From positions 12,747-76,746 of the forward strand of contig JADFLW010000003.1 in NCBI GenBank assembly GCA_022564195.1: a stretch of DNA of 64,000 bases, read 5' to 3'. The notes beneath the pieces are model-generated. The model worked only from the letters and a program-made list of their open reading frames with translations, was not told the origin of the DNA and ran no database searches. A program made the position numbers and the translations under genes. Shown here piece after piece: positions 51,497 to 63,956 of the stretch. Every line of letters starts with the position of its first letter. Position 1 is the stretch's first letter. Source of the DNA: Patescibacteria group bacterium. Lineage in GTDB: Bacteria; Patescibacteriota; Microgenomatia; UBA1400; Chisholmbacteraceae.

Positions 51497-51572
51497 GGGC
51501 TCATAGCTCAATCGGCAGAGTGCTTCGTTCACATCGAAGAGGTTCCAGGTTCGAGTCCTGGTGAGCCCACCA
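51497..51572 (+). tRNA. tRNA-Val: tRNA-Val (anticodon CAC), CCA encoded
   Basis: Manual cloverleaf. Acceptor GGGCTCA/TGAGCCC. D-arm GCTC..GAGT. Anticodon stem CTTCG/CGAAG with loop TTCACAT. T-arm CCAGG-TTCGAGT-CCTGG. Discriminator A followed by CCA. Confidence 0.8.
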
Positions 51573-51910: not shown

Positions 51911-52006
51911 AGGAAATTCTTCTTAGGGAAAAAAGAAACCAAATAAGAACGCGTGTATGTAGGGATTGAAGAGAAAGAGAAAGCCAAACCCCAAAAAGGG
52001 GAGGTG

Positions 52007-52037
52007 AGATAGGCTCAGAGCCCACCTCACCTGTTCT
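52007..52037. terminator. bidirectional hairpin terminator between the cupin gene (+) and the island operon (-)
   Basis: 'AGGTGAG-ataggctcagagcccac-CTCACCT' is a 7-bp stem. On the - strand it is followed by CCCCUUUUUGGGG and a U-rich tract. Confidence 0.35.
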
Positions 52038-52199: not shown

Positions 52200-53639
52200 T
52201 CAGCTCTCCGCAACAGCTGCTGGGCGAGCAGGAGCCGGACGTCCGAGCCCGAGCTCCTCGGCGTAGTAGGTGATCGGTTTATCCCTCGTCTCCCTGATGA
52301 GGTCCTTTTGGGCGAACACCCACCGATTGGTAGCCTCATTGCCATTCCAGTAGACAGCTTTCACCCGCTTGATTTCGTCATACTGATCACTGGTGGTAAG
52401 GTTTTTAAGCTTCCGGCACTTCGACCTACCCACATTGATCTTCGGATGGTCAGCTAAAGGGTTGTCGGTGAACAACCACAAGAGAGTCGAGAGCGAAAGC
52501 ATCTTCTCCCGAGCAAAGTAGGCTTCGGTGGTCTGCTCCCCTCCTTGCTCATAGAGAACGTCGACGATGAGTGTCAGGCTTCGTTCCTTGCCGTCTCCGT
52601 TCGGCCGCGAGTCCCTGTACTGGCCTTTGATCGCCAGAAGCTCTGTGCCAAAGGCGATTGATTGGACGGAAATGGCTCCCGGAATCCAAGGCTGGCCTTC
52701 GGTTTTGAAGTCGCCTTCCGTTCTGAAGACCGGGCTGCGGGAATGGCCCTGGACGACCTTCGTCCCCGAGGTCTTGATCGCGATCACGCGTTTCCCGGAA
52801 GCCGTCAGCCGCCGAGCGCGCTTGATGAAAAACTCTCCCATCTGCACCCAGGCGAACATCGGGGTGACCCCTTCTGGCGCAGCATAGAGCTCCACTCGAG
52901 GATCTTCCAGATGGCCCATGAACAGCATATCATCGCTGAGGTCCGTGTAGTCCTCTTCCCGCTCTCCGGCGATGCAGGCCATGAGATGAAAGTCTGAGTA
53001 CTGATCCTCCTCCATCATCAACATCGCTGCCCTAAAAATCGCCCGTAGATTCATGGTCTTGCCAACTCCACCTGGACCGGCAATCCATAGACCGTGGCCT
53101 TCGCCGAGCGGCCATCCGCCACGGAAAATGATCCCGAGGACAGGTTCGTACTCTTCGTCCCAGGAAACCCGGCGATCGAAGTAGTCGAGTGGAAGAGGTT
53201 TGTTGGGATAGCGGCCGAAGATCTTGTTCTGATCCTCCTCGTCCGGCTTCGCAACCAAAGTGGGCCAATTTCGGACCACCGCAGCGTCCGTTTCCCCGTT
53301 GACGGAAATGATCTGAGTGATAGGGTCCGGAGGAACCTCTTCCTCGTTGTCGGATCTGCTGCTCGATCTGTCAGGCGGCTCCCGATAGAGGATAAGATCC
53401 CCTTCCCGTAATCCCCACAGCTCCACAGTAGGGGAAGGAATGAATCGGCCCCTTGCAAGGGACTCAGCAAAAATCTCACTCCTGGGGAATTTCGCCAACT
53501 TCTTGGCGTTTGGCGGGATGACCACCGTATCTGGAGTTCCCCATTTGCCGTATACAGGTCTCTGGCTCTGAGGGAGCTCCGAGAGGGGTCGTTGTAGTAC
53601 CAACCCACGCTTCGGTTTATCATCTTGTGTACTCAACAC
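52200..53639 (-). CDS. P-loop NTPase (island gene A), function unknown
   Basis: Walker A 'GPGGVGKT' in mid-protein and a candidate Walker B 'LTLIVDV'. The start is re-set to GTG at 53637-53639, because the conserved hairpin+SD leader motif ('GGAAAGGAG' + 8 nt) sits immediately upstream. The ORF-track ATG at 53699 lies inside that leader. Confidence 0.55.
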   Translation of the reverse strand: MLSTQDDKPKRGLVLQRPLSELPQSQRPVYGKWGTPDTVVIPPNAKKLAKFPRSEIFAESLARGRFIPSPTVELWGLREGDLILYREPPDRSSSRSDNEEEVPPDPITQIISVNGETDAAVVRNWPTLVAKPDEEDQNKIFGRYPNKPLPLDYFDRRVSWDEEYEPVLGIIFRGGWPLGEGHGLWIAGPGGVGKTMNLRAIFRAAMLMMEEDQYSDFHLMACIAGEREEDYTDLSDDMLFMGHLEDPRVELYAAPEGVTPMFAWVQMGEFFIKRARRLTASGKRVIAIKTSGTKVVQGHSRSPVFRTEGDFKTEGQPWIPGAISVQSIAFGTELLAIKGQYRDSRPNGDGKERSLTLIVDVLYEQGGEQTTEAYFAREKMLSLSTLLWLFTDNPLADHPKINVGRSKCRKLKNLTTSDQYDEIKRVKAVYWNGNEATNRWVFAQKDLIRETRDKPITYYAEELGLGRPAPARPAAVAES

Positions 53640-53648
53640 AAGTCTTTC

Positions 53649-53678
53649 TCCTTTCCTAGTGGGCCTCAGGCCCAACCG
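53649..53678 (-). promoter_or_regulatory. conserved leader hairpin + SD motif (copy for gene A)
   Basis: Gene-sense 'CGGUU-GGGCC-UGA-GGCCC-ACUAGGAAAGGAG'. A degenerate second copy lies at 53721-53750. Confidence 0.5.
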
Positions 53679-53996
53679 GTCAGTCCGTTTTCCAGTCATT
53701 GCTGGATTGGGAACAGGCTACCCTCTAGTAGTGGGCCTCTGGTCCAAAAGGAAATCTCTAGAGAGCATTCCGTTCCCAATCCGTACGCGTTCTTATTTGG
53801 TTGTCAAGGAGCTAATGCGAAGCATAAGCTCCGCACCCGCCAATATTTTTCGAGGGAGTATACGGCTGACTAAGCAGTAAGCCGACCATCGATAAAATAT
53901 GGTGGGAAAGTGCTATCCCGCTCAAGCGGGATCCAAATGCCCGCCCCAACAAACGCCAAATGTCTGTTTGCAGGCGTCTTATAAATTGTCAATTTT

Positions 53997-54063
53997 CCTC
54001 TGTTTCGCCCTCCGTAGCTTTAGCGTAGGGGGCTCATCAGTCAGCCTTTGGCTGAAACAGAAA
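53997..54063 (-). ncRNA. hammerhead ribozyme, type III (HHR-1)
   Basis: Gene-sense 'UUUCUGU U|UCAGCC-AAA-GGCUGA CUGAUGA G-CCCCCUACGC-UAAA-GCUACGGAGGG-C GAA ACAGAGG'. Canonical CUGAUGAG...CGAAAC core. Stem III UUUCUGU/ACAGAGG, stem I UCAGCC/GGCUGA, GUU cleavage triplet. Confidence 0.6.
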
Positions 54064-54225
54064 ACAACACAACAAAATCAAACTACAACCCCCTTCACAC
54101 AAACAAACAAACAAACAATTCATCAACCCCGCAAATGGGATTGAGATGTCTGCCGAATTTCGGTGAAGAGAGGGTGAGGGAGGGATCCCAAACTTCGGGA
54201 TCCCATTCCCATGTCAACGTCCCTC

Positions 54226-54576
54226 TTAGGACCGCCACGGTCTTCGGCCTATCCATTCGGCTGTTGGGAGGTCATTCCCGCGCCATCGTCCGTTGGATCG
54301 CAATGGATCCTCATTGACGACCTGACGTAAAAGCCCAATGGAAAGGGCGATCGCGCCGATGATGCCAACGAAAACGGCCAGGAAGCTCGAAACCAAACGC
54401 GAGAGTAGTGGAATGGACTCCACCAAATCTCGCTGAGCCGACGTTAACTCGCCGCCCGACGGAAAGCCAAATGCCGCAAACACATGAAGCGCGAATATGC
54501 CTCCCAGGAAAGGTAGGAGCAAATGAGGCCGATGAAAAGTGCTAAATGGACTCGGAAGTACCAGTCCGAAAACCAT
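54226..54576 (-). CDS. small two-TM membrane protein (pilin/VirB2-like topology)
   Basis: 116 aa. GAGGAG SD 8 nt before the ATG. Hydrophobic N-terminal segment, polar loop, second TM helix. Confidence 0.4.
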   Translation of the reverse strand: MVFGLVLPSPFSTFHRPHLLLPFLGGIFALHVFAAFGFPSGGELTSAQRDLVESIPLLSRLVSSFLAVFVGIIGAIALSIGLLRQVVNEDPLRSNGRWRGNDLPTAEWIGRRPWRS

Positions 54577-54677
54577 TTCGGTACGCTCCTCTCATTCGGC
54601 TCTTTCCTCTTAGCTCCCAAAGGAGCACGTCCGCGATTCTTGCCGTTTCCCGCGATCCAACCCCTCAAAGTGATCAA
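54444..54677 (-). CDS. possible small one-TM ORF (TTG start) overlapping the previous gene in another frame
   Basis: Preceded by a perfect copy of the conserved hairpin+SD motif ('CGGUU-UGGCC-AGA-GGCCA-ACUACGAAGGGAGG'). Overlaps the 54226-54576 gene by 132 nt, so one of the two is probably mis-modelled. Confidence 0.2.
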   Translation of the reverse strand: MITLRGWIAGNGKNRGRAPLGAKRKEPNERSVPKWFSDWYFRVHLALFIGLICSYLSWEAYSRFMCLRHLAFRRAAS

Positions 54678-54680
54678 ATC

Positions 54681-54716
54681 CTTCCTCCCTTCGTAGTTGG
54701 CCTCTGGCCAAACCGG
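54681..54716 (-). promoter_or_regulatory. conserved leader hairpin + SD motif (copy for small ORF)
   Basis: See the leader-motif finding. Confidence 0.45.
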
Positions 54717-54914
54717 ATACTGGAACGCTTCATTGGGCGATTGATCCCGAATGAAGGATAAAACGGATAAGTCCGGGAGGAGCAGGTTCGAGAGAACCCA
54801 ACTCCTCTTTTTTTGGCTAGCGCCGATCAGATCAAGAGCAAGAGCAATGCATACCCCAGCCATTTCAACTGAACGTTTTGGAACATGATCGCTCCTTCCA
54901 TCGAATCGTCGTGA

Positions 54915-56537
54915 CTAAGACGACGAATCGTTCTCATCAACCTCTCGGAGTTGAGACGGTCTGGTTCGACCGCCTGACGATTTCCCGCGACGAAGCCGTA
55001 GCGAGACGCGCCCCCGTGACACCGCGGTATCCCCCGACGCCAAAGCGCTATCGTCGACTTCGCGTAGGGTAGAGGATCTCTTCGCCGGCTGCGCAACCTC
55101 CGGTGGTTGAGCCACATCCGTGACCCGATCCACCACAGTCGGCTGCAGTTCACGATACTTCTCTTGCACGTATCGCGCCTCGATGTCGGCGATGTGCCAT
55201 CCCTGACCGAGCAACCGGGCAAACAGCCTGAGCGTAATACCAGAGCGAAGGCAGAACGCGATCGCGTCGTCCCTCTCAAGACCAGCGTCTTCGATGCGCT
55301 TACGCTTGTAGAAGGTATCGCTGTCCCACAGCGCTTCGAGCTCTGCGCGAAATTTCGCGTTGTCTTGCTTGAGCTCGTCAAGCGAGCGGGTGATCACCGG
55401 ACGGCCCGGGAGTTCATCAGAGAACTCCTCCTGAACCTCCGCAATGGTGACCCCAGGCATAGCCAGTTCTTGCCCGATCTCGAAGCCTTCAAAGCTCCAA
55501 TGATCGGGATCCTCGACTGTGGCCTCGTCAATCGTGGAGGGTTCTGCCTTGATCCGAAGCAGGGCGTCGTAATGAACCATCACTGCCTGGAAAGCCTCCT
55601 CCGCCTGCGCATCGGTCGCGCCTCCAGCAAGGGCCTCCACTCCAGCTGCATTCGCTCGACTCTCAGCTGTGCCTCGAAGCTGTAGCATGAACGCTGCGCG
55701 TCGTCGAATCTTGCCCCGAGCATTCATGAAAGCGACGGCATTCTCCCTGTAGAGAGCCAAGTCGTGTGCCCGTGGCCCGGCCCTGGAGGGGAAGCTCAAG
55801 CTCATGACATCCTCTTTCTGGAATCTGCGCTTGTTCCACCACTTCCTGAGTCGACTCGTCTTGATATCATTATCGAGCAGGTCAGGATCGGTGCGGGCCA
55901 ACACGTCTTCGATCATCGTCGTCGGCGTCGCCGAGATATACATATCCTCCCCGGCCTTGAATAGGCTGGGAATGGTGACACCGCCTTTGCGATGTCGCAT
56001 CTCATCAGTGTAGATGAGATACCTGTCTTGGCGTTGCTGCCAGCGAAGGACGTGGTACGTAAGCGTCGGCGTGAGGAACGCAAGCACAGGCCACGCCCAA
56101 AACGCCATCCCCCATTCGGGGGCCGATGGGTCGATCAACTTGAAATCGGGGACGTCTGGCGAAACCGTGATCGCCGCTACAAATGCGCCCAACGCCAAAT
56201 TGATGAACGACACCGTGACAGCCAGGAGAAACGGCCCAAAGATGCTAAAACCGAAGGCGAAGGGAGACCATTTGAGAAACTCCGGCCAAACGTACGCCTT
56301 CTTGCTCATTTCCAGCACCTTTTCAAGCCTAACTCCTGCCTCGAGTTCGCGCGTCCGCTTCTTCTCACTCACGAGGAAGAAAAAGTCGAAGACACGCTGG
56401 ATCACCTTCTCCCCGAAAGGGAAGATCATCAGTGTTGCAGAGAAGATGATCCAGACGCAAACCACGATGATGGCAAGGCCAACATACGCGGCTGCATCCG
56501 ACGGAAGTACCTCTGAAAGGAACTCTTCGAACGTCAC
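54915..56537 (-). CDS. membrane protein with N-terminal TM bundle and large cytoplasmic domain (island gene B)
   Basis: 540 aa, with 3-4 N-terminal TM helices and no P-loop. GTG start (complement 56535-56537) 8 nt after an AAGGAG SD that lies within the conserved leader motif. Confidence 0.5.
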   Translation of the reverse strand: MTFEEFLSEVLPSDAAAYVGLAIIVVCVWIIFSATLMIFPFGEKVIQRVFDFFFLVSEKKRTRELEAGVRLEKVLEMSKKAYVWPEFLKWSPFAFGFSIFGPFLLAVTVSFINLALGAFVAAITVSPDVPDFKLIDPSAPEWGMAFWAWPVLAFLTPTLTYHVLRWQQRQDRYLIYTDEMRHRKGGVTIPSLFKAGEDMYISATPTTMIEDVLARTDPDLLDNDIKTSRLRKWWNKRRFQKEDVMSLSFPSRAGPRAHDLALYRENAVAFMNARGKIRRRAAFMLQLRGTAESRANAAGVEALAGGATDAQAEEAFQAVMVHYDALLRIKAEPSTIDEATVEDPDHWSFEGFEIGQELAMPGVTIAEVQEEFSDELPGRPVITRSLDELKQDNAKFRAELEALWDSDTFYKRKRIEDAGLERDDAIAFCLRSGITLRLFARLLGQGWHIADIEARYVQEKYRELQPTVVDRVTDVAQPPEVAQPAKRSSTLREVDDSALASGDTAVSRGRVSLRLRRGKSSGGRTRPSQLREVDENDSSS

Positions 56538-56576: not shown

Positions 56577-56624
56577 ATGAACCATACGCGTCGTTGCGCG
56601 TGGGCTCGAAAATGAACCCGACGG

Positions 56625-56683
56625 AGTCGGGGCCACATTAGAGCCCACTGCCTGACACGCAGGCACTCTCTACGAATGATCAA
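56625..56683 (-). repeat. conserved leader block (copy 1 of 2)
   Basis: About 85% identical to 60808-60852: 'TCGGGGCCACAT.AG.GCC.AC.GCC.GACACGCAG..ACTCTCTA'. Confidence 0.5.
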
Positions 56684-56782
56684 TTCCCATCTTTCCTTTC
56701 TATAATCTTGTTGTGTTGTCAAAGTGCGTATCCCTCGCCCGTATACCACGCTCGCATTGAGCAGGTTTGAGTTTGGAATGTA

Positions 56783-56854
56783 TTCTGTTTCGTCCCTCCA
56801 TAGCTTATTAGCGACGGGGGACTCATCAGGTCCGACGTATATCGGACGACAGAA
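56783..56854 (-). ncRNA. hammerhead ribozyme, type III (HHR-2)
   Basis: Gene-sense 'UUCUGU C|GUCCGA-UAUACG-UCGGAC CUGAUGA G-UCCCCCGUCGC-UAAUAA-GCUAUGGAGGGA-C GAA ACAGAA'. Perfect 6-bp stem III, 6-bp stem I, canonical GUC cleavage triplet. Confidence 0.65.
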
Positions 56855-56943
56855 AAACACAACAAGTAGAGCGAGGGGGGGAGAAGCAAGATGGGTGGGT
56901 GGACCGAAGGTCCACCCCTGTAGCGAGCGTTCGCTACCCCATC

Positions 56944-58407
56944 TCACTTCACCGTTGTTGCCGCGCAGGTCCCAAGGACCAACCACGGGTCCATCCAACC
57001 CCGATTCATCTCTCCGTAGAGAACGAAGTCATCGGGATGCTGATCGGAAACCCCGATATGGACATGCGATCCAGCATCGGGATTCTCAGAAGAAGGCTTC
57101 GGATAGACGTCGCCGGTATTGCCGCACTCGCCGATCTTTTGGCCTTTCTTCACCTTCCTTCCCGGGATCATCAAGAACGCCTTCTTGTCAAGGTGGGCGT
57201 ATACAACGTAGATCCCACCATGATCGATCCAGATATGCTTTCCGAACCCGGTGATCCCATCCATGAGCGTACCGGACGAGGGCTTGATGATCTTCCCGTC
57301 CGCGAGAGCCACGATCGGATCGCCTGTCGAACAGTCGAAGTCTCCACCGTAGTGGATGATGATCTTCTTGTGTCCATCCTCGTCTTCGACCTCGCGTTCT
57401 TCGAGCCACTCCCCAGTCACTACGATTGGGAAGCCTTCCGGAAACGGCGCTTCAAGAAACCCCGTCACTTCCGGCAGGAGCCCGAGCGCATCCAGGAGGT
57501 CGATGATCCATTTCCTGAGGAAGTCAAACATTCCCCAGTCAACGGTGTCTTCCGACCCTCCCGTGCCGATGACGCCGACGTCCCCAACGAGAGCATTGAT
57601 CTCTGCAGCCCTATTGACCAGGACTCCGACATAAACAAAGTCGCAGTTCCAACTGCAGTACAACGCATCGATCTTCTCTTTGCGAGACAGATTCGCTCTG
57701 TAGCCGATGGCATGCAACCAGGCGGGGATCGCGTGGAAGGAAACCTTCTCAGACCAGAAGTCACAACTTCGAACTTCGTCGTCGTTGCTCTTCTTCAGAT
57801 ACTTCTGGCAGACGATCTTCGCCGTTGTCGGTAGCCAACCGCCCCGACCCATCTCTCCGGCGCCACAGTGGCTTATGTAGCCCCCGTAGCCCTCGTAGAT
57901 ATAGGCGCGGGCGATCGGATTGCGATCCCGGACATCGTGTTTGCGCCAGTGTCGCATCATCCACCGGGCAGCGGCTAACTCCTTGCGAAGTTGCCGAGGG
58001 TTATGACCCCAGCGCTGCTTGATGCTCGATTGCCAGTCGCAGGAGCCCATGTTGTTCCCACTCGCGGATTCAAACTGCTCGATCGTGAGCAGAATGCCGA
58101 TGTCGATGTTGGCGCCGAAGCGGCGGTTACACCATAAACGCCCGGCCTCGGCATTCGCCACGGCTGAGGGAGAAAATCCCAGGGATGCAACTCGCTCCTG
58201 ATCCTCAGGGGACAGGGCAAAGTCGTATCCGCCGCAGCCGAGTCCCAACCAACGACTAACGATCTCGTTGTAGGAGTTGGGAAAGGTGGCGTGGGCGTAC
58301 CACGCGAACATGATCCCGGTAAAGGAACCGAAAATCAACAGAGGTACGCCCATCAAACTCACCAGCCCGATGAATCTACGCAGGAGTCGTTGTCCTGCAT
58401 TCATCAT
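56944..58407 (-). CDS. membrane-anchored cell-wall hydrolase with C-terminal M23 (LytM) peptidase domain (island gene C)
   Basis: N-terminal TM segment. C-terminal 'HYGGDFDC.TGDPIVALADGKII...HIWIDHGGIYVVYAHL...GECGNTG...GSHVHIGV' matches the M23 HxxxD...HxH pattern. Translationally coupled to gene D, 9 nt downstream of its stop. Confidence 0.7.
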   Translation of the reverse strand: MMNAGQRLLRRFIGLVSLMGVPLLIFGSFTGIMFAWYAHATFPNSYNEIVSRWLGLGCGGYDFALSPEDQERVASLGFSPSAVANAEAGRLWCNRRFGANIDIGILLTIEQFESASGNNMGSCDWQSSIKQRWGHNPRQLRKELAAARWMMRHWRKHDVRDRNPIARAYIYEGYGGYISHCGAGEMGRGGWLPTTAKIVCQKYLKKSNDDEVRSCDFWSEKVSFHAIPAWLHAIGYRANLSRKEKIDALYCSWNCDFVYVGVLVNRAAEINALVGDVGVIGTGGSEDTVDWGMFDFLRKWIIDLLDALGLLPEVTGFLEAPFPEGFPIVVTGEWLEEREVEDEDGHKKIIIHYGGDFDCSTGDPIVALADGKIIKPSSGTLMDGITGFGKHIWIDHGGIYVVYAHLDKKAFLMIPGRKVKKGQKIGECGNTGDVYPKPSSENPDAGSHVHIGVSDQHPDDFVLYGEMNRGWMDPWLVLGTCAATTVK

Positions 58408-58416
58408 GCACCGCCA

Positions 58417-60717
58417 TCACCACTGGCGTCCGGTGACATTCAGGATGCTGTCCGGAATGTCGTTGATCAGGTTGTAGTACACTTCGTCCCGATCCACCGG
58501 ATTCCGCACGATGATGCGGTAATACGGCATCTTCCGGAACCAGAGTTCCAAGGGGAAGGATTCGGCAAACCCCTCGATGAACGCCTTGACCTGATCGACC
58601 GTGTGCGCCGTAGCCACGAACCAGATGCGATCCTTATGGATCCCGTCCAGGGCATACACGCACCAGTCGCGTCCTCGCATGCCGATATCGTGGGGGATCA
58701 TGCCCAGCTCTTCATGCTTAGTGAGCGCCGGCCAGGCGTAGATGTCTTCGATGGTCAGCGAACAGATCGGGGGCGTCGGCCACTCATAGCCGGCATACCC
58801 GGTCTCCCACTCCTCATACTCGGGCGTCACTCCCTCGATATCGTCGGGCGGGACTGCCCAGTTCCTGAAGCGGAGGTTGAACTCCTCCAGATCAGCGAGC
58901 ACGTAGTGGGAGTAGGCGAAACTCTTGATCGAAGGCATGAGAAGCTCTGGCATACCGACGAACTTGCCCGTCTTCCACCATTGCTTTGCCTTGGCTTGAA
59001 CCCGGGCGCGTGCCTGCGCTTCTACCTTGCGCATCAGTTCCATCTGGTCCTCGACGGTGTGCGCATCTGCGATGCTCACCACGTTGATGTCACCACCGTG
59101 GTGCTTGACCCAGTTGATGGCACCCTCTTGCCTGGCAGTCGTCAAGGCAACACGCTTGCCGAAGGGGCCGACCTGGTTGCCGCCGAGGGCAGCGTCCCAA
59201 GTGGTCTTCCCGCGTTCACCTTTGCCAATGAGCAGGAGATGTTTGTAATTCTCCCGATCGATGAAGACCGGATGCCCGGTCTCCTCGTCTTTGCCCCAGT
59301 AGTGGGTACCCTGGATCTCGCCGATCCCGTTGACCGTCGAGACCAGCCCGTGCAGCAGCTCATCAGCACCAGTCGTAACCGTGTGCCGGAACCGAGTCAG
59401 GGGATAGTCCAAGATCGGATCCAGTGGCGGTGCCCCAGGAATCATTTTCCGGAACGCCTTCTGCAGCTGGTCAAACAGCCCCGTGACTCTGTGCCACTCT
59501 CCCAGGTTGCTGAGCCTGAGCTCAACATCGTCGAACTTGGGCATCCGCCCGTTTTCGATCTGGGAGGAGGTGCGGAGGAGCGTCGTGATGTACAGCTCTC
59601 GGGATTGAAGATCACCCTCAAACCACGGCAGCTTGACGCGCTCACACTGAATCCAGATGTCCAGATCCAGCTCCGGGTCAAGTAGATCCTGCAGAAACTC
59701 GTGCGGGAACGGACCCTTCCAGATCCTGTAGGCGCGATCGCCCAAGATGTAGTAGTCATGCCGCCATTTCGGGCGGATCGGGCAAGCAACCTCCAGGGGA
59801 GGCAGTGGTCGTTCAGCCAGCTTGATCGGCCGGCGGTGAATCACCGAGTGCAGGAACGAACCGAACAGCTGATAGGGCAGCACCAAGCCGCCCATCGCCG
59901 CCGAAGTCCCGCGACTACCGATGAACGCACCCGAGAGACCAGTAATGATCAGGTTCCTCTCGTAGAGTTCCTTCCCATCATAGCCCTGTTGGTAGTCACC
60001 CAGGGCAGCGTCTTGGATCTCGTCGATCAGAATCTTATAGGGGCGATTCCCCTGACGCCTGATCTCGTCCAGATGTCTCTTGAAAGGTTCCACGATCATC
60101 GGCGAGTTGAGAAGGAGCATGGTGATGACGTTGCCAAGATGGGAGTCACCCCAATGGTGTAACATCAAGTTGATACCCGCCACCACATGACGTGTGCCGT
60201 CCTCGTCAGGCACGGTATATCCGTGCTGGAGCGGTCGATTGTGAAACACAACCGATCGCCATTTCTTGCGAGTTGCGGTCGGATCGCTGTCAGCCTTCTT
60301 TCGCCAATTGGATGGCCAAAGGCGAGCCAGAGTGGCAAACAGTCCTTTTCGATCCGAAAGCTCGAGCGGAGCGACCATCAGCATATTGCCGTAGCGTGTT
60401 TCTGCGGTCGCGCGAAGCCCCAAGATTTCTTCAGCGGTTCCCTCGTCAACATTGGGATCCCTTTTCTTGCGGGCTGAGATCCTCAGCGGTTCACGCTGAG
60501 GTTTGCTCCCCATTTTCTCTTCCATTACGGAAGGAAGAAGGGGCGCCGGTGTCCTCACTCCCCGAGCGAGCATATGGCCAACCTCTGGCAGTTCCGGCTC
60601 TGGTTGTTCCAGATCCGGTTGTACCGCCTCCGGTTGTTCCACACTGTGGTCAGCCTCTGGCTGTGGCTGTACCACAGTCCCGTCAGGGTGAACCTCTGCC
60701 TGTGCGTCGGTATTCAT
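58417..60717 (-). CDS. large P-loop NTPase (VirB4-like or SF3-helicase-like; island gene D)
   Basis: 766 aa from ATG 60715-60717, 4 nt after an AGGAGG within the conserved leader. Walker A 'LLLIGKGERGKTT' at about residue 500, with candidate Walker B 'NVVSIAD' or 'YVLADLEE'. Acidic Pro/Glu-rich N-terminus. The ORF-track start at 60828 is an upstream extension through the leader. Confidence 0.55.
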   Translation of the reverse strand: MNTDAQAEVHPDGTVVQPQPEADHSVEQPEAVQPDLEQPEPELPEVGHMLARGVRTPAPLLPSVMEEKMGSKPQREPLRISARKKRDPNVDEGTAEEILGLRATAETRYGNMLMVAPLELSDRKGLFATLARLWPSNWRKKADSDPTATRKKWRSVVFHNRPLQHGYTVPDEDGTRHVVAGINLMLHHWGDSHLGNVITMLLLNSPMIVEPFKRHLDEIRRQGNRPYKILIDEIQDAALGDYQQGYDGKELYERNLIITGLSGAFIGSRGTSAAMGGLVLPYQLFGSFLHSVIHRRPIKLAERPLPPLEVACPIRPKWRHDYYILGDRAYRIWKGPFPHEFLQDLLDPELDLDIWIQCERVKLPWFEGDLQSRELYITTLLRTSSQIENGRMPKFDDVELRLSNLGEWHRVTGLFDQLQKAFRKMIPGAPPLDPILDYPLTRFRHTVTTGADELLHGLVSTVNGIGEIQGTHYWGKDEETGHPVFIDRENYKHLLLIGKGERGKTTWDAALGGNQVGPFGKRVALTTARQEGAINWVKHHGGDINVVSIADAHTVEDQMELMRKVEAQARARVQAKAKQWWKTGKFVGMPELLMPSIKSFAYSHYVLADLEEFNLRFRNWAVPPDDIEGVTPEYEEWETGYAGYEWPTPPICSLTIEDIYAWPALTKHEELGMIPHDIGMRGRDWCVYALDGIHKDRIWFVATAHTVDQVKAFIEGFAESFPLELWFRKMPYYRIIVRNPVDRDEVYYNLINDIPDSILNVTGRQW

Positions 60718-60757
60718 ACGACCTCCTAATGGGTAGTCGGCCTCTTGGCCGAACCGA
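60718..60757 (-). promoter_or_regulatory. conserved leader hairpin + SD motif (copy for gene D)
   Basis: Gene-sense 'CGGUU-CGGCC-AAGA-GGCCG-ACUACCCAUUAGGAGG'. Confidence 0.5.
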
Positions 60758-60807
60758 AAGACTTTTCGCGTCATTGCGCGATTGGCCCAAAAATGATCCC
60801 GACAACG

Positions 60808-60852
60808 TCGGGGCCACATCAGGGCCAACCGCCCGACACGCAGACTCTCTAG
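60808..60852 (-). repeat. conserved leader block (copy 2 of 2)
   Basis: See 56625-56683. Confidence 0.5.
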
Positions 60853-61010
60853 GAGATCTCAAAAATCCAATAATTCCTCGCTCTATTCTTGTTGTGTTGT
60901 CAAAGTGCTATCCCGATGAGATGTCGGGATTTCATTGCCCGCATACGCAAACGCTTCTCGTTCACAACGCGGGCCGTAAATAACTCAGGTTGTCAAGTTT
61001 GTCTGTTTCG

Positions 61011-61082
61011 CCCTTCGACTGCCTGTCCTACTGACAGTCCGCTCAGGGGCTCATCAGGTCCGACGTATAGCGGACAACAAAC
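61011..61082 (-). ncRNA. hammerhead ribozyme, type III (HHR-3)
   Basis: Gene-sense 'GUUUGU U|GUCCG-CUAUACGU-CGGAC CUGAUGA G-CCCC...(extended stem II)...GAAGGG-C GAA ACAGAC'. Stem III GUUUGU/ACAGAC with a G-U pair. Stem I covaries with HHR-1. Confidence 0.6.
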
Positions 61083-61242
61083 AAACACAAACAAGAAGAA
61101 GCGACACTCTCTACCAAAGACAAAAAACCAACAAACCAACCCCGCTACTGGGATTGAAAAGGTTCTTTGCTTGAGCAAAAGAGTGAAGGTGGATAGAGAG
61201 GGTTCAAACATCGAACCCCCTCCTATCACCTGTGCATTCCCA

Positions 61243-61626
61243 CTAGCCATCCTTCCCATCTTGGCGTTTCGCCAACGTCGCTCGGTCCTCTGGACCTTGA
61301 CCACGGGTGGTGAAGATCCGTTGAAGGGTAACGTCCCGCTTCAACAGGGTGTCGAACGGCTTGGCCCGTCTGTTGCTTTTCCTCGCCTCAATCAGATGCG
61401 AGTTCGTCTCCCAAAAGAGGTGTAGGAAAAACAAGCTAACATAGGCCATTGCGATAACGGCACTCACCACCGTGATCAACGGTAAGTCGCCTTCGAGGAG
61501 AAGGCTCATCTCGTTGTACACGAGGAGCAAGTCAGAACCGACCAAGATAAGTAGGACGGCCCGTAACCGCATTGGGTGGGAAGTATCCACAAGCCAGTAG
61601 TGAACTGACCTGACTCGCTCATACAT
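61243..61626 (-). CDS. small two-TM membrane protein, translationally coupled to gene E
   Basis: 127 aa. The ATG overlaps the gene E stop (ATGTATGA). GGGAGGT SD upstream. Confidence 0.4.
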   Translation of the reverse strand: MYERVRSVHYWLVDTSHPMRLRAVLLILVGSDLLLVYNEMSLLLEGDLPLITVVSAVIAMAYVSLFFLHLFWETNSHLIEARKSNRRAKPFDTLLKRDVTLQRIFTTRGQGPEDRATLAKRQDGKDG

Positions 61627-63397
61627 CGCTCACCTCCCGGAGATAGCGCGATGGCCCTTGCCGCTTTCGAGGCTGGGAACGTTGAGCCCGTACTGGACGA
61701 GCCACGTTTTCCTCCATAGGGACATCTGCGGATTGGCGCAGCTGCCGTGTACGCCGACGCTCGTCCACCGATCTCGTCACATGGACTATCGCGCCAGTTG
61801 CCCACTTTGCAGGCCTAAGCTGCGGATTGATTTTGGCAGCGATGTCAGCAGCCGTATCTTGCACTTCAAAGTAGCGAAGCGGAAGCCTTCTCATGCGTTC
61901 CGCAAACCCAGGAGATTCCTCTCGGAAGCCCTCAGGCCGAGCAGACGGATCCCGTAGGATACCAGCCTGTCCGTCGACGGAATCGTCAGCCATCCAAGCA
62001 CTGCCGGGCTGAGAGACAGATCCGCTCACGCGTCCGACTCCCGGTTGACGGAGCGCCCCAGGCTGATCGCCAGTGCGTACCCTTCCGGGAGCTCGAGTAT
62101 CGCTGATACCACCAGCACTTCCTTGAGATGCGGAAGCAGTCGGCCTTCGAAGACGACTCCCGAACTGGAGGGAAACCTTGGTCTCCTCTTCCTTCCGGGA
62201 GAGCGATCTGGATCCAGCTCGCCTGCCGCGATATCGACCGGTCGGACCGGTCGCACGGGAACCTGGGGTTCCCCTCACCGGCCCTCGACGACTTCCTCCT
62301 TTCGCATCGCGCAAGCCACCCAACCTGTCGCCTGGCTTTCCCTTCGTACCAAGAGGTGGGTCCTTGGAAGGACTGCCTTTGTCCGAGGGAGCAGGAGGCA
62401 CCATCGGCCCGGGTGGCGGAAGCCGCGCTTGGCCAGAGCGTTCGTCGCGGAGTCGCGCTTGGCTCGGTCCACCAGTAGGGATTGGCCCTGTAGTAGCGGT
62501 GGCCGTTGCGGTTGTGGTCCGCCGATAGCGTCTCACGTCAACGCCTCGCAGACCAGCGACGCCAGCCGCGTCGAAGCTCCGCAGCGTGCTGCGTCGCCTT
62601 CTGCCTTCTTGCGCTTGCACTGCCTGTCCCTCTGCTTCCTTGAAGGAGGTGACTGGCGCAAACACCAGTGCGATGACCGGCAGTATGACGTAGCAGATGA
62701 GCTGCGTGAGTCCGAGCACCCAGGCATAGAGCCCGATGTTGGCGGTCTGTGTCGAGATTGGTCCTACTTCCAGCGTCGGAGTCCCGCTGACCAGAAACGT
62801 GATCATGCTGAACCCCCAACTGAAAAGCAGCCAGCCGACAACTTGCGCTACCCAAACATTCATGGGTCTCGTGTTACCCACGATCACGGTGGCGAAAATC
62901 GCAACCACGTACGTCAGCAGCATAATGGCCTGAACGTACCGGTGGATCAACGCAACATTGAGGATAACCCCCACCAGCATTGGCGCATTCACGATGTCGG
63001 CGATTGAAGGGCTCGTCAAGCCAAACGCTTCTGCGATCGAAAAGAGGCTGATATCGTCAGGTTGAAGTCGCGACCCGACCAGGGTGAGCGCCGGGATGAC
63101 AGCCCCCACAAACCCTGCCCCGAAGGTGAGGATCTGCCATTTGATGACACCTCCTGTGTCCTGTCTACTTGCCGCCTGCAGCGCCTTGTACGTCGCCAAC
63201 GGCACGAGAATGAGCAGGATGCGAGTCAACCTCCGATATTTCTCAAGATCCGGTTTCAGAAACCAGAGCCCGAGCCACTTCTCGTTGATCGCTCTCAGGA
63301 TATCTCCGATAGGACCGAGAGGTTCCTCACTGCTGCACGCGGCGAGAATCAACCCACCAAGCATCAGCAGCAGGAGAGACAGCGCCTTGCGTTTCAT
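61619..63397 (-). CDS. polytopic lipoprotein with long disordered Arg/Gly/Pro-rich C-terminal region (VirB6/TrbL-like topology; island gene E)
   Basis: Lipobox 'LILAAC'. About 6 TM helices in the N-terminal half. Low-complexity 'RGxRG/PGxxG' tail. 'TTTATATATTGP' Thr-rich run. Confidence 0.55.
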   Translation of the reverse strand: MKRKALSLLLLMLGGLILAACSSEEPLGPIGDILRAINEKWLGLWFLKPDLEKYRRLTRILLILVPLATYKALQAASRQDTGGVIKWQILTFGAGFVGAVIPALTLVGSRLQPDDISLFSIAEAFGLTSPSIADIVNAPMLVGVILNVALIHRYVQAIMLLTYVVAIFATVIVGNTRPMNVWVAQVVGWLLFSWGFSMITFLVSGTPTLEVGPISTQTANIGLYAWVLGLTQLICYVILPVIALVFAPVTSFKEAEGQAVQAQEGRRRRSTLRSFDAAGVAGLRGVDVRRYRRTTTATATATTGPIPTGGPSQARLRDERSGQARLPPPGPMVPPAPSDKGSPSKDPPLGTKGKPGDRLGGLRDAKGGSRRGPVRGTPGSRATGPTGRYRGRRAGSRSLSRKEEETKVSLQFGSRLRRPTASASQGSAGGISDTRAPGRVRTGDQPGALRQPGVGRVSGSVSQPGSAWMADDSVDGQAGILRDPSARPEGFREESPGFAERMRRLPLRYFEVQDTAADIAAKINPQLRPAKWATGAIVHVTRSVDERRRTRQLRQSADVPMEENVARPVRAQRSQPRKRQGPSRYLREVSDV

Positions 63398-63401: not shown

Positions 63402-63956
63402 CTACCGTGGAGCTGCCGGTTCCGCGAACTCCTGAGTGAAATGGTCGATGATGTTCACTCCTCGAGGGGGCAGGAAGCTGTCGAAACCGATCAGTTCACC
63501 CGCGATCCCGATGACGATGATGATCCCGACCATGATCCCGATCCAGGTGCCTATGGGCGAAGGTGCGCCTGCTGCCGTCGGTCTCCTCACGTTTAACGGC
63601 CCGAAGAAGACCGCATAGAGAATAACCAACACACCGGCGACGATGACGTACCAGTGAATTCTCAACAGAAATCTCTCTTCGTCTTCACCTTCCTGCAGCA
63701 AGACGCCCATGAGCAAAATGCCCGTGAACGCCGTTGCCTGCAGACGCGTTCCAGAAATGGGGCCATAGTTACGCTCCCCGATTCTGGCGAGATCGATCCT
63801 CGCTGTCAGCCGCTGAAGCGGTTTCAGCAGAAGGATCGCGATCGTGTAGAGCAAAGCCAACACGATCAACGGGTTGGGCTCAAGCAGAAACTGCACAAGC
63901 CCCGAAAATGGGGTGGAAAGCATCGCCACTCCATGAGCAAAAAGTGTGTCCAACAT
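63402..63956 (-). CDS. small polytopic membrane protein (island gene F)
   Basis: 184 aa with 4 hydrophobic segments. AGGAG SD 8 nt upstream, preceded by a covarying leader hairpin. Confidence 0.45.
   Translation of the reverse strand: MLDTLFAHGVAMLSTPFSGLVQFLLEPNPLIVLALLYTIAILLLKPLQRLTARIDLARIGERNYGPISGTRLQATAFTGILLMGVLLQEGEDEERFLLRIHWYVIVAGVLVILYAVFFGPLNVRRPTAAGAPSPIGTWIGIMVGIIIVIGIAGELIGFDSFLPPRGVNIIDHFTQEFAEPAAPR

What the first reader, a model, noticed from the sequence alone, without database searches (positions are those of the whole stretch)
56625..61010. Modular repeated intergenic architecture: hairpins, HHR, 'TTGACAAAGTGC' box, conserved leader block, hairpin+SD
The three long intergenic regions of the island share the same parts in the same order when read on the gene-sense strand. 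First come stable 3'-UTR hairpins after the upstream gene, such as GGGTGGACC-GAA-GGTCCACCC and GGATCCC...GGGATCC. Next is a U/A-rich tract. Then the hammerhead. Then one or two TTGACA boxes: 'CTTTGACAACACAACAAGA' in copies 2 and 3, and a TTGACA directly abutting stem III in copies 1 and 3. A small covarying hairpin follows ('ATCCCGC..GCGGGAT' or 'ATCCCGA..TCGGGAT'). A block of about 55 nt, roughly 85% identical in two copies, comes next ('TCGGGGCCACAT...GACACGCAG..ACTCTCTA'). The hairpin+SD leader closes the module.

This looks like a duplicated cassette for processing plus re-initiation or regulation, placed between operon segments.
Basis: seen in the sequence. Interest (0 to 1): 0.6.

Follow-up and report, generated by a model that had tools for sequence, protein, structure and literature searches.

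The report
rRNA-operon-style junctions with hammerheads between genes
The repeated intergenic modules are real. They look like copies of the control signals of ribosomal RNA operons (a boxA antitermination site plus long-range pairing between the two ends of each gene block), with self-cleaving hammerhead ribozymes at three junctions, which gives bacterial hammerheads a possible job.

Summary
The genes lie on the minus strand of a GC-rich island (about 51,940 to past 64,000).

Each long intergenic region reads, in order:
- 3'-UTR hairpins
- a G/U-rich tract
- a type III hammerhead (three in the window)
- a hairpin followed by GCACUUUGACA
- a C/A-rich stretch
- a long conserved hairpin
- a small hairpin with a CAANGA loop
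- a hairpin next to the Shine-Dalgarno site

Two reinterpretations follow.
- **The "TTGACA box" is not a promoter.** It has no -10 element, and relatives carry TTTAACA instead. It matches boxA, the NusB/NusE antitermination site of rRNA operons. A 31%-identical relative carries the perfect consensus GCUCUUUAACA four times.
- **The stretch after each boxA pairs with the next G/U tract.** In unbiased scans that tract, 1.8-4 kb downstream and just before the next hammerhead, is the global best partner. This holds in four diverged lineages, with different sequences at equivalent junctions. The same scan recovers the known leader-trailer helices of an E. coli rRNA operon.

The best reading is a long operon of a mobile element, transcribed under boxA-type antitermination and cut into end-paired mRNA segments. 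All of this is computational. Ribozyme cleavage, Nus binding and RNA pairing are untested.

The parts
61192..61227 (-). 3'-UTR hairpin after the 127-aa gene (61k junction)
   Evidence: Located; sequence read.
61136..61156 (-). CAAUCCC...GGGGUUG hairpin at the start of the trailer region (61k)
   Evidence: The same motif occurs at 54123-54143 and in L001, L005 and L013.
61079..61102 (-). Trailer strand (G/U tract) of the segment that encodes the 184-, 592- and 127-aa genes. Its leader partner lies about 250 nt beyond the window end, after the boxA at L002 6452.
   Evidence: the leader of boxA EA 9691 has its global best partner here (-27.3 kcal/mol, z about -7); 27 Watson-Crick and 2 G-U pairs.
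60997..61086 (-). Type III hammerhead, 61k copy. Cleavage is predicted 3' of U at 61076 (GUU triplet). Stem lengths I/II/III are 5/4/10 bp.
   Evidence: descriptor search; alignment. Rfam scores it only 20.5 bits, in a wrong register.
60984..60996 (-). TTGACAAC directly after stem III. Not conserved in relatives; role unknown.
   Evidence: Absent in L001 and L005. No -10 element.
60910..60930 (-). boxB-like hairpin AUCCCGA-CAUCUCA-UCGGGAU, one nucleotide 5' of boxA
   Evidence: It covaries with GUCCCGC/GCGGGA, UCCGAC/GUCGGA and GCGGAGC/GCUUCGC at other junctions.
60876..60908 (-). boxA-like motif GCACUUUGACA (60898-60908) running into the leader strand ACAACACAACAAGAAUAGAGCGAGG
   Evidence: motif; global best partner is the trailer at 56856-56877 (-35.6 kcal/mol, z about -8)..
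60778..60833 (-). Its apical part is terminator-like.
   Evidence: 23 pairs, 6 of them with compensatory changes in 4 sequences..
60766..60781 (-). H2: hairpin with CAAUGA hexaloop
   Evidence: one in every leader, 58-68 nt before the start codon; covariation.
60715..60751 (-). H3 hairpin CGGCC-AAGA-GGCCG, then ACUA, the SD (AGGAGG) and the ATG of the 766-aa ATPase gene
   Evidence: repeat family D1.
56897..56940 (-). Two 3'-UTR hairpins after the M23 peptidase gene (56k junction)
56856..56877 (-). Trailer strand CCCUCGCUCUACUUGUUGUGUU. It pairs with the 61k leader 4.0 kb upstream.
   Evidence: -34 to -35 kcal/mol, 21 bp with a 2-nt bulge. The cognate pairing beats the boxA leader in its own IGR (-27.7).
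56783..56854 (-). Type III hammerhead, 56k copy. Cleavage is predicted 3' of C at 56848 (GUC). Stem lengths 7/5/6 bp.
   Evidence: Rfam scores it 15.2 bits.
56700..56727 (-). boxA-like GCACUUUGACA (56717-56727) plus leader strand. No boxB hairpin in this copy.
   Evidence: global best partner is the trailer at 54062-54082 (-22.7 kcal/mol, z about -6).
56598..56651 (-). H1 long hairpin, 56k copy
56586..56601 (-). H2 hairpin with CAACGA loop
56532..56570 (-). H3 hairpin GGGAC-AGA-GUCCC, then ACUA, the SD and the start of the 540-aa gene
54697..54807 (-). Reduced junction without hammerhead or boxA: a 3'-UTR hairpin, an H2-like hairpin (loop CAAUGA), then H3 and the SD
54123..54204 (-). 3'-UTR hairpin GGGAUCCC...GGGAUCCC and the CAAUCCC hairpin (54k junction)
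54062..54082 (-). Trailer strand UUUGAUUUUGUUGUGUUGUUU. It pairs with the 56k leader 2.6 kb upstream.
   Evidence: It has no good partner in its own IGR (-17.0).
53995..54064 (-). Type III hammerhead, 54k copy. Cleavage is predicted 3' of U at 54056 (GUU). Stem lengths 6/4/8 bp.
   Evidence: (Rfam RF00008, 37.3 bits, E = 7e-5).
53901..53934 (-). boxB-like hairpin followed by a truncated box, AGCACUUUCCCACC
   Evidence: The same unit occurs at L002 2747.
53772..53834 (-). Second hairpin, then boxA-like GCUCCUUGACA (53802-53812) and the leader strand AACCAAAUAAGAACGCGU..GGAUUGGG
   Evidence: The motif is identical to Aquifex rrn BoxA at positions 2-9 (PMC3177189); the partner is at 51937-51968.
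53637..53782 (-). Leader of the Rho-like gene: H1 (53704-53782), H2 with CAAUGA loop (53691-53706), H3 (53661-53673), SD and GTG start
52002..52032 (-). 14-bp hairpin plus U-run after the Rho-like gene (terminator-like)
51937..51968 (-). Last trailer, at the island end: CAAUCCC..ACGCGUUCUUAUUUGGUU. It is an 18-nt perfect complement of the leader at 53785-53802.
   Evidence: (18-mer). The equivalent pair in L013 and L007 shows a compensatory change.

Best explanation
**What it is.** The island is part of a rare, unclassified mobile element. Its genes form one long minus-strand operon divided into blocks. Every junction between blocks carries a copy of the logic used by ribosomal RNA operons.

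**Proposed mechanism.**
1. A hairpin plus a boxA-like sequence (GCACUUUGACA) emerges in the nascent RNA and recruits the host NusB/NusE-type antitermination complex. RNA polymerase can then cross the long untranslated junctions and the terminator-like hairpins without Rho-dependent or intrinsic termination.
2. The C/A-rich stretch that starts inside boxA is a 'leader strand'.
3. After the gene block is transcribed, a G/U-rich 'trailer strand' emerges and pairs with that leader. This closes the block into a loop, as in the leader-trailer helices that flank 16S and 23S rRNA.
4. At three junctions in the window, a type III hammerhead sits immediately 3' of the trailer and cuts the transcript.
5. 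The upstream block is left with its 3' end (2',3'-cyclic phosphate) tucked beside the helix.
6. The downstream RNA starts with a 5'-OH and the folded ribozyme body. The next boxA follows 50 to 170 nt after the end of the ribozyme.
7. Downstream in each leader, a long hairpin (H1), a CAANGA-loop hairpin (H2) and a hairpin next to the SD (H3) set the stability or translation of the first gene of the block.

**Shown.** The sequence elements, their order, the long-range complementarity and its covariation, and the match to boxA.

**Inferred.** Self-cleavage, Nus binding, antitermination, RNA-level pairing in vivo, and the roles of H1-H3.
For: **Hammerheads.**
- Three hammerheads meet the consensus core and stem rules, on the sense strand only.
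- Homologous ribozymes sit at syntenic junctions in L001/L005 and L022.

**boxA.**
- The motif occurs 6 times in the composite element, always on the sense strand and always intergenic.
- In the window it occurs 3 times per 12.1 kb of island sense strand, 0 times antisense, and 3 times per 103.8 kb of host sequence counting both strands.
- Relatives carry GCTCTTTAACA, a perfect match to the published consensus GYTCTTTAANA (PMC5725501): once in L001, four times in L022 and twice in L021.
- The window copy GCUCCUUG is identical to Aquifex rrn BoxA at positions 2-9. G2, C5 and Y6, the positions reported as critical, are kept (PMC3177189).

**Leader-trailer pairing.**
- An unbiased scan compared the 32 nt after each boxA with every 40-nt window of the element. 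The global best hit is the next trailer downstream for 5 of 5 leaders in the window-type element (z -6 to -8).
- The same holds for 3 of the 4 testable leaders in the L001 type, with the fourth resolved, and for L007 and L013.
- It also holds for 4 of 7 intergenic leaders in L022, with 2 more ranking second, and for 2 of 2 in L021.
- Sequences at homologous junctions differ completely between lineages yet stay complementary. One example is AACAAGAAGAAGC/GCUUCUUCUUGUU against AAGAAAGACCGAAA/UUUCGGUCUUUCU. Another is CCAAAUAAGAACGCG/CGCGUUCUUAUUUGG against CCAAACAAGAACG/CGUUCUUGUUUGG.
- The cognate upstream leader beats the leader in the trailer's own IGR in all three window cases.

**Positive control.**
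- The same motif and scan on an E. coli rrn operon find exactly the two known boxA sites and their known partners just after 16S and 23S (z -7 and -5).

**Literature.**
- boxA anchoring is proposed to hold the leader near the RNA exit channel so that it pairs with the trailer on emergence.
- An engineered hammerhead fused after the 16S trailer is functional (PMC10250234).

**Leader hairpins.**
- H1, H2 and H3 covary.
Against: **No experimental data.**
- There is no transcript, cleavage or binding data of any kind.

**Weak points in the boxA assignment.**
- The window's boxA copies match the gamma-proteobacterial consensus at only 9 of 11 positions, with A at position 4 and G at position 9.
- The host's own rrn boxA could not be obtained, and the host taxon is unknown.
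- The boxA resemblance was noticed after the fact.
- One boxA-like copy in L001 (GCACAUUA) has a transversion at a position reported as intolerant.

**Weak points in the pairing and hammerhead evidence.**
- Duplex energies are about the same on the sense and antisense strands. Pairing at the RNA level, rather than a DNA-level inverted repeat, is therefore inferred from context only.
- The hammerheads score below the Rfam gathering threshold (15-37 bits against 48.5). Two use GUU rather than GUC.
- Hammerheads are absent or decayed at equivalent junctions in some relatives, so they are not essential to the architecture.
[quoted passage not shown] The helix and the ribozyme may therefore compete rather than cooperate.
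- H2 instances were selected by requiring a stem, which inflates the covariation count.
Confidence: 0.6

Rival explanations
1. This is plain ribozyme processing with end protection, and no antitermination is involved. The hammerheads cut the polycistronic RNA into block-length mRNAs, as proposed for clustered prophage hammerheads. The leader-trailer complementarity and the hairpins only protect the new ends from exonucleases. The resemblance to boxA is coincidental, or reflects another protein's site.
For: - Clustered hammerheads that flank gene blocks in prophages are documented and cleave in vitro (PMC3088659).
- The complementarity itself is well supported.
- The window's boxes are imperfect matches to the consensus.
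Against: - The architecture persists at junctions that have no hammerhead: 3 of 6 in the window type, 3 of 5 in the L001 type, and most in L022.
- In the most distant relative the box becomes the exact canonical boxA at four junctions. That is hard to explain by chance.
- The arrangement of hairpin, boxA and leader strand is the same as in rrn operons (PMC10250234).
Confidence: 0.2
2. The TTGACA boxes are -35 elements of internal promoters that re-initiate transcription after each processing or termination module.
For: - TTGACA is the exact sigma-70 -35 consensus and recurs at every junction of the window-type element.
- Terminator-like hairpins precede it.
Against: - No promoter is predicted at any box. 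No -10 element lies at 16-18 nt, and total promoter-like hits do not exceed shuffled controls (4 against 4.7).
- A host promoter upstream of the tRNA shows a canonical extended -10 (sequence read), so the host does use -10 elements.
- Relatives have TTTAACA or TTTAAAA at the same place, while the flanking GC.C and the following leader strand are conserved.
Confidence: 0.05
3. The complementary pairs are DNA-level inverted repeats that flank gene cassettes. They would be sites for a recombinase that inverts or shuffles cassettes, not RNA helices.
For: - Sense and antisense duplex energies are equal, and several pairs are perfect 15-18-mers.
- One cassette, flanked by identical junctions, appears duplicated in one assembly.
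Against: - No recombinase was found in about 22 kb of the element.
- The leader arm always directly follows a sense-strand boxA. The trailer arm always directly precedes a sense-strand hammerhead or the block end.
- The extended helices use G-U pairs, up to 10 in one duplex.
- No inverted variants were seen among three assemblies.
Confidence: 0.05
4. Segments bounded by hammerheads become covalently closed circular mRNAs. The 3' end made by one ribozyme docks, through the leader-trailer helix, next to the body of the previous ribozyme. It is then ligated by the reverse hammerhead reaction or by an RtcB-type ligase.
For: - All six intact hammerheads in three lineages keep the same proximal stem III (CUGU-H / GAAACAG), although stems I and II vary. 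The 5' strand of one could therefore pair with the body of another.
- Hammerhead cleavage yields 5'-OH and 2',3'-cyclic phosphate ends (PMC10250234); that these are RtcB substrates is my own knowledge.
- Circular products were raised as a possibility for clustered hammerheads (PMC3088659).
Against: - The first and last segments have only one hammerhead or none, yet still carry leader-trailer pairs. Circularisation therefore cannot be the general purpose.
- Perreault et al. looked for circular or spliced products in other systems and saw none.
- The conserved stem III may simply reflect common descent.
Confidence: 0.07

Closest known systems
rRNA operon antitermination and leader-trailer helices (boxB-boxA-boxC; rrnTAC; PMC10250234, PMC3177189)
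   Same: - A hairpin is followed by boxA, then a leader strand that pairs with a trailer strand placed just after a multi-kb payload.
- The unit is repeated for successive payloads in one transcript (16S then 23S; here up to six blocks).
- The helices covary while boxA stays conserved.
- My scan gives the same kind of signal on E. coli rrn.
   Different: - The payloads are protein-coding gene blocks with SD sites, not rRNA.
- The leader strand starts inside or right after boxA rather than a few nucleotides later, and there is no separate boxC.
- Separation of the blocks is by a built-in hammerhead at some junctions, not by RNase III (not excluded here).
- The whole thing sits on a mobile element.
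Clustered hammerhead ribozymes flanking genes in prophages (Perreault et al. 2011, PMC3088659)
   Same: - Several same-strand hammerheads lie between gene blocks of a horizontally acquired element.
- Processing of a long transcript into block-length mRNAs is proposed.
   Different: - That work did not report an associated boxA, long-range leader-trailer complementarity or conserved leader hairpins.
- The function there was left open.
Lambda nut sites and N-mediated antitermination; boxA upstream of CRISPR arrays and suhB (PMC2800207, PMC7665894, PMC5725501)
   Same: - A boxA element is used outside rRNA operons, including by a mobile element, to protect long or untranslated transcripts from Rho.
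   Different: - In lambda the order is boxA then boxB, and it needs the phage N protein. No N-like protein has been identified here.
- Those systems have one or two sites per transcript and no leader-trailer pairing or ribozymes.
Engineered 16S constructs with a hammerhead fused after the trailer (Warner et al. 2023, PMC10250234)
   Same: - A type III-style hammerhead sits directly 3' of a trailer strand and leaves a few nucleotides appended to the helix.
   Different: - That arrangement is artificial and built on rRNA. Here it is natural and built on mRNA.

Membership tests
Hammerhead ribozyme, type III (Rfam RF00008) | Conserved core: C3 U4 G5 A6 N7 G8 A9, G12 A13 A14, the A15.1-U16.1 pair, and H17 not G | tested here: met
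   All three window copies, plus L001, L005 and L022, have the full core. Their cleavage triplets are GUU, GUC, GUU, GUA, GUU and GUA. The criteria are those of PMC3088659.
Hammerhead ribozyme, type III (Rfam RF00008) | Three stems, with stems I and II closed by loops and stem III open. Base pairs adjacent to the core (1.1-2.1, 10.1-11.1) must be intact. | tested here: met
   Stem lengths I/II/III are 5/4/10, 7/5/6 and 6/4/8 bp. The core-adjacent pairs are G-C, G-C and U-A. Stems I and II show compensatory differences between copies.
Hammerhead ribozyme, type III (Rfam RF00008) | Score at or above the Rfam gathering threshold (48.5 bits) | tested here: not met
   Scores are 37.3, 20.5 and 15.2 bits. 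Two copies were aligned in a wrong register, using a GUC inside the loop of stem I.
Hammerhead ribozyme, type III (Rfam RF00008) | Self-cleavage | not testable with these tools
   Needs in vitro transcription.
boxA (NusB/NusE binding site of antitermination complexes) | Sequence match to the boxA consensus (GYUCUUUAANA), with G2, C5 and Y6 conserved | tested here: inconclusive
   The window copies GCACUUUGACA (twice) and GCUCCUUGACA match 9 of 11 positions and keep G2, C5 and Y6. GCUCCUUG equals Aquifex BoxA at positions 2-9. Relatives have perfect 11/11 matches.
boxA (NusB/NusE binding site of antitermination complexes) | Located in transcribed RNA on the sense strand, upstream of a long transcription unit, with an adjacent hairpin (boxB) | tested here: met
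   All copies are on the sense strand and intergenic. A hairpin lies 1-4 nt 5' of the box at 4 of the 6 boxA sites of the window-type composite (2 of the 3 inside the window) and in L022.
boxA (NusB/NusE binding site of antitermination complexes) | Match to the host's own rRNA-operon boxA | not tested
   No rRNA operon is in the window.
boxA (NusB/NusE binding site of antitermination complexes) | NusB/NusE binding and Rho-resistant elongation | not testable with these tools
   Needs EMSA, ChIP or reporter assays.
rRNA-type leader-trailer helix | The sequence just 3' of boxA is complementary to the sequence just 3' of the payload | tested here: met
   The global best partner in whole-element scans is the cognate trailer for 5 of 5 leaders in the window type, and for most leaders in three other lineages. 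The E. coli control is.
rRNA-type leader-trailer helix | Covariation that maintains the helix | tested here: met
   Homologous junctions in four lineages carry unrelated but mutually complementary sequences. There is a single compensatory U-A to C-G change in the Rho-block helix.
rRNA-type leader-trailer helix | The payload is a ribosomal RNA | tested here: not met
   The payloads are ORFs with SD sites. No rRNA was found by Rfam.
   No promoter-like site lies at any box on the minus strand. Total hits do not exceed shuffled controls. The TTGACA is not conserved in relatives.
Viroid-like or retrozyme circular RNA | A short non-coding unit bounded by identical hammerheads in tandem | tested here: not met
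   The units are 2.8-4.2 kb, protein-coding, and bounded by different hammerheads.

The most novel reading that the evidence does not exclude
A family of mobile elements has copied the whole transcription and processing logic of rRNA operons onto protein-coding genes. Each gene block is loaded with a Nus-type antitermination complex at its own boxA. It is then looped by boxA anchoring and closed by a leader-trailer helix. Finally it is released by a hammerhead whose stem III competes with that helix.

In the boldest version, the hammerhead-bounded blocks are ligated into circular mRNAs through hybrid ribozymes that share the invariant CUGU/ACAG stem III. This would give bacterial hammerheads a defined function, and it would be the first case of mRNAs matured like rRNAs.
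Probability: 0.3. Interest if true: 0.9.

Novelty: new variant of a known kind. Interest (0 to 1): 0.8.

Why it matters
**Why it matters.**
- Hundreds of hammerheads are known in bacteria and phages, and their function is still unclear. Here they sit at a fixed place in a conserved, interpretable architecture, immediately after a trailer strand and shortly before a boxA. That yields concrete, testable roles: releasing a completed, end-paired mRNA block, and re-arming antitermination.
- If the boxA and leader-trailer reading holds, Nus-dependent RNA looping is not restricted to rRNA and lambdoid phages. It could then be a general device that mobile elements use to express long operons with long untranslated junctions.
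- The element also encodes its own Rho homolog, so the antagonist of boxA complexes is part of the same operon.
- The leader-trailer scan used here is simple and could be run genome-wide to look for further non-rRNA examples.

Tried and rejected
**Rfam and structural searches.**
- At gathering thresholds, Rfam finds only a tRNA and a glmS ribozyme in the window. The hammerheads are below threshold. No other ribozyme class was found in L001 or L002.

**Promoter reading of TTGACA.**
- Rejected.

**Local pairing.**
- I first assumed the G/U tract paired with the box in its own IGR. The energy matrix shows the upstream cognate leader is better in all three cases, and the 54k tract has no local partner.

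**Strand-asymmetry test.**
- Comparing G-U against A-C pairs, to separate RNA pairing from DNA repeats, gave no difference. E. coli rrn also shows little difference, so the test has low power.

**Protein annotation of the island.**
- Pfam and PHROGs recognise only the M23 peptidase domain.
- The 766-aa P-loop protein has no match in PDB sequences, plasmids or phages. It gives only weak hints of FtsK/HerA.

**Collection scans.**
- Protein-pattern scans of genome, viral and JGI metagenome contigs found nothing.
- A DNA pattern (G/U tract plus hammerhead) recovered only pieces of the L001-type element and unrelated hits: L003, L004, L008 and L009.

**Literature.**
- The last word-indexed protein search, run with a profile, returned only the two close homologs.
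- The phylogenetic survey of boxA by Arnvig et al. 2008 is not held in the library.
- My recollection of Firmicute rrn leaders, in which boxA GUUCUUUGAAAAC runs straight into the stalk strand, could be backed only indirectly, by a Mycoplasma spacer primer.

**Host taxonomy.**
- It could not be determined.

Full report
**1. Setting**

GC content rises from about 48% to about 57% at window position 52,000. From there to the window end, all long ORFs lie on the minus strand:
- 184 aa (63402-63956)
- 592 aa (61619-63397)
- 127 aa (61243-61626)
- a 766-aa P-loop protein (58417-60717)
- a 487-aa protein with an M23 peptidase domain (56944-58407)
- 540 aa (54915-56537)
- a small gene near 54.2-54.7 kb
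- a 479-aa ATPase (52200-53639)

Only the M23 domain is recognised by Pfam or PHROGs. The 766-aa protein has two homologs among 5.8 billion clustered proteins, and no match in plasmid or phage records. The island is therefore part of a rare, unclassified and probably mobile element.

The identical sequence occurs in three independent metagenome assemblies. This excludes an assembly artefact and extends the element about 10 kb beyond the window end. I built a sense-strand composite, called EA here, in which EA position p equals window position 73957 - p.

**2.

A descriptor search required the hammerhead core and three stems. It finds exactly three hammerheads in EA and two in the 46%-identical relative (L001 plus L005). 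All are on the sense strand and none is antisense.

The window copies are at 60997-61086, 56783-56854 and 53995-54064. The predicted cleavage positions are 3' of 61076, 56848 and 54056.
- They satisfy the consensus rules of Perreault et al. (PMC3088659).
- They fall below the Rfam threshold (37.3, 20.5 and 15.2 bits against 48.5). Two were aligned in a wrong register.

The two largest junctions share 186 nt at 77% identity, E = 1.5e-30.

Corrections:
- The tract before the ribozyme is G/U-rich, not U/A-rich.
- The small hairpin is missing from the 56k copy.
- The third module lies at 53.6-54.2 kb, outside the given coordinates.

**3. The TTGACA box is not a promoter**

- The promoter scan finds nothing at the boxes on the minus strand. 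Total hits do not exceed shuffled controls.
- In relatives the same position reads TTTAACA or TTTAAAA.

Read on the sense strand, the box is GCACUUUGACA (twice) and GCUCCUUGACA. This resembles boxA, the NusB/NusE site of rRNA antitermination complexes.
- The published gamma-proteobacterial consensus is GYTCTTTAANA (PMC5725501).
- Aquifex rrn BoxA is GGCUCCUUGGCA, and G2, C5 and C6/U6 are reported as critical (PMC3177189).

A motif written from the observed boxes (and therefore matching them by construction) hits six times in EA, always on the sense strand and always intergenic. It hits three times in 103.8 kb of host sequence counting both strands, and never on the island's antisense strand.

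**4. The long-range pairing**

The C/A-rich stretch that begins inside each boxA is the reverse complement of a G/U tract. The matching tract is not mainly the one in the same junction. It is the one that ends the same gene block, 1.8-4 kb downstream.

I tested this without prior assumptions. The 32 nt after each boxA were compared by RNAduplex with every 40-nt window of the whole element.

For all five distinct leaders of EA, the global best partner is the next trailer downstream:

| boxA (EA) | Best partner (EA) | Where the partner lies |
|---|---|---|
| 6111 | 8831 | end of that block |
| 9691 | 12841 | just 5' of the 61k hammerhead |
| 13049 | 17071 | before the 56k hammerhead |
| 17230 | 19861 | before the 54k hammerhead |
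| 20145 | 21981 | the island end |

The z-scores are -6 to -8.

In window coordinates, the pairs that lie fully inside the window are:
- leader 60876-60908 with trailer 56856-56877, 21 bp with a 2-nt bulge
- leader 56700-56727 with trailer 54062-54082
- leader 53772-53812 with trailer 51937-51968, an 18-nt perfect match plus a second 8-bp helix

The cognate upstream leader beats the local one in all three cases.

**5. Independent lineages**

*L001 type (46% identity).* Three of the four testable boxA leaders have their best partner at the next trailer. The fourth was ambiguous in the scan and was assigned to the next trailer from the duplex detail; the fifth leader's trailer lies beyond that contig and was confirmed in the near-identical L007. 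One trailer lies inside the 3' end of the peptidase ORF at a junction without a ribozyme.

*The last block (the ATPase gene).* I predicted a complement downstream of the gene in two other contigs, and found it.
- L013: ACCAAATAAGAACGCG with CGCGTTCTTATTTGGT.
- L007: AACCAAACAAGAACG with CGTTCTTGTTTGGTT. This is a compensatory change relative to the window.

*More distant relatives.* A full HMMER search gave 56 remote homologs of the 766-aa protein.

The 22-kb locus L022 is about 31% identical.
- It has a type III hammerhead at the syntenic junction.
- It has seven intergenic boxA motifs on the sense strand, and an eighth match inside a coding region that I treat as a false positive.
- Four of the seven are the exact canonical GCTCTTTAACA, each preceded by a hairpin.
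- The leader scan ranks the expected trailer first for four leaders and second for two.

In L021 both leaders rank first.

The helices at homologous junctions have unrelated sequences in the different lineages. That is strong covariation.

**6. Positive control**

On an E. coli rrn operon, the same motif finds exactly the two known boxA sites. The same scan finds their known partners immediately after 16S (-39.8 kcal/mol, z -7) and after 23S (-22.8, z -5).

The island junctions therefore behave, under this test, just like rRNA leader-trailer units. The literature supplies a mechanism.
- BoxA bound to NusB/NusE on the polymerase is proposed to keep the leader next to the RNA exit channel, so that it pairs when the trailer emerges.
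- An artificial hammerhead fused after the 16S trailer is functional (PMC10250234).

**7. The rest of the leader**

- **H1.**
- **H2.** A small hairpin with an invariant CAANGA loop follows. It occurs once in every boxA leader of EA and of the L001 type, 58-68 nt before the start codon. Its stems covary fully. The instances were picked by requiring a stem, so this count is inflated.
- **H3.** The hairpin next to the SD also covaries; I count at least eight different stems.
- The roles of H1-H3 are unknown. RNase III processing, protein binding or translational control are all possible.

**8. Interpretation**

Most likely (confidence 0.6), this is a long operon of a mobile element expressed under boxA-type processive antitermination. 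Each gene block is closed by a leader-trailer helix. Hammerheads cut the transcript right after some trailers.

The new 5'-OH RNA would be an obvious Rho substrate. A fresh boxA follows 50-170 nt after the end of each ribozyme, which would fit re-arming of antitermination after each cut.

[quoted passage not shown] Helix formation and ribozyme folding may therefore be coupled or competing.

Hammerheads are facultative.
- They are absent at some equivalent junctions.
- The copy is decayed in L013.
- L021 has a variant copy with an A-A at 10.1/11.1.

**9. Limits**

- Nothing has been tested experimentally.
- The window's own boxes are 9/11 matches to the consensus.
- The host and its rRNA boxA are unknown.
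- The strand-asymmetry test was uninformative, so RNA-level pairing rests on context.

**10. Novelty**

Already known:
- clustered hammerheads in prophage operons (PMC3088659)
- boxA outside rRNA operons (PMC5725501, PMC7665894)

Full-text searches that combined hammerhead, boxA, leader-trailer and mobile elements returned no paper, by title and abstract, that describes this combination; the hits were not read in full. I rate it a new variant of known kinds, with high interest.

Noticed in passing
window 52200-53639 (-); relatives P0004, P0005, L007 749-2035: The last gene of the island encodes a divergent homolog of the transcription termination factor Rho. A profile of four family members matches Rho structures at E = 6e-13 across the ATPase domain, and by eye the N-terminus resembles the RNA-binding OB fold of Rho. 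The window copy has KT where relatives and Rho have the Walker B LD, so it may be catalytically inactive. A mobile element that encodes Rho alongside multiple boxA sites is unusual.
   Followed up: partly
window 60766-60781, 56586-56601, 53691-53706, 54726-54739; EA, EC, L013 and L022 leaders: A small hairpin with an invariant CAANGA hexaloop occurs once per leader, at a fixed distance from the start codon. C1 and G5 could pair, giving an AAN pseudo-triloop with a bulged A, as in iron-responsive elements. This is probably a protein-binding site; no partner has been identified.
   Followed up: partly
L003 (JGI contig Ga0003068J53076_1096500), 342-430 and 1004-1092: An unrelated contig holds two identical hammerheads 662 nt apart in a tandem repeat. 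This is the signature of a small viroid-like or retrozyme-like circular RNA.
   Followed up: no
L015 1-2842 versus 3565-6406 (upstream of the window end): A 2.8-kb cassette (genes of 462, 110, 142 and 64 aa, with its junction) appears twice in tandem at 99.8% identity in one assembly. A second assembly breaks exactly at the repeat. It is either a real duplication by recombination between repeated junctions or an assembly effect.
   Followed up: partly
window 32506-32716 (+): A glmS ribozyme lies in the host part of the window (Rfam 55.8 bits, above threshold). This is a hint about the host lineage, which was not determined.
   Followed up: no
window 51497-51569 (+) and 51585-51910 (+): A tRNA gene and a small cupin gene lie just outside the island end (last trailer at 51937-51968; GC jump near 52000). 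In the relative L001 the other end of the element abuts two tRNA genes. No integrase was seen in the available 22 kb.
   Followed up: partly
window 54444-54677 (-) versus 54226-54576 (-): Two overlapping reading frames follow the 54.7k hairpin+SD. The first is a 77-aa ORF starting at TTG 54677, directly after the SD. The second is the 116-aa ORF called by ORF listing. Which one is expressed is unclear.
   Followed up: partly
L013 230-300; L021 2785-2870: Hammerheads decay at equivalent junctions. L013 keeps the G/U tract and a stem I-like hairpin but has lost CUGAUGA and GAAA. L021 has CUGAUGAA...AGAAAC, with an A-A opposite at 10.1/11.1. The leader-trailer pairs remain intact in both.
   Followed up: partly
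window 52002-52015, 54160-54185; L002 2540-2560: C/U-rich stretches that resemble the 16S anti-Shine-Dalgarno sequence (UCACCUCC, CCUCACC) follow the 3'-UTR hairpins in most trailers. They could pair with SD regions or mimic the 16S 3' end.
   Followed up: no
EA 6255-6295 (L002 about 3015-3055): In one leader, the hairpin+SD is followed by a three-codon mini-ORF (TTG AAT ACC TAA) about 125 nt before the annotated gene. It is either a leader peptide or a decayed start.
   Followed up: no
L001 5111-5842: The L001-type element encodes a 243-aa protein with a precomputed hit to the C-terminal domain of the RNA polymerase alpha subunit. That is another sign that these elements manipulate host transcription.
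   Followed up: no
L008 (Pararhizobium MAG) 2551-2619; L009 (Rhodoferax MAG) 6014-6099: Two genome hits to the pattern of G/U tract plus hammerhead were not inspected. They may be unrelated hammerheads or chance matches.
   Followed up: no
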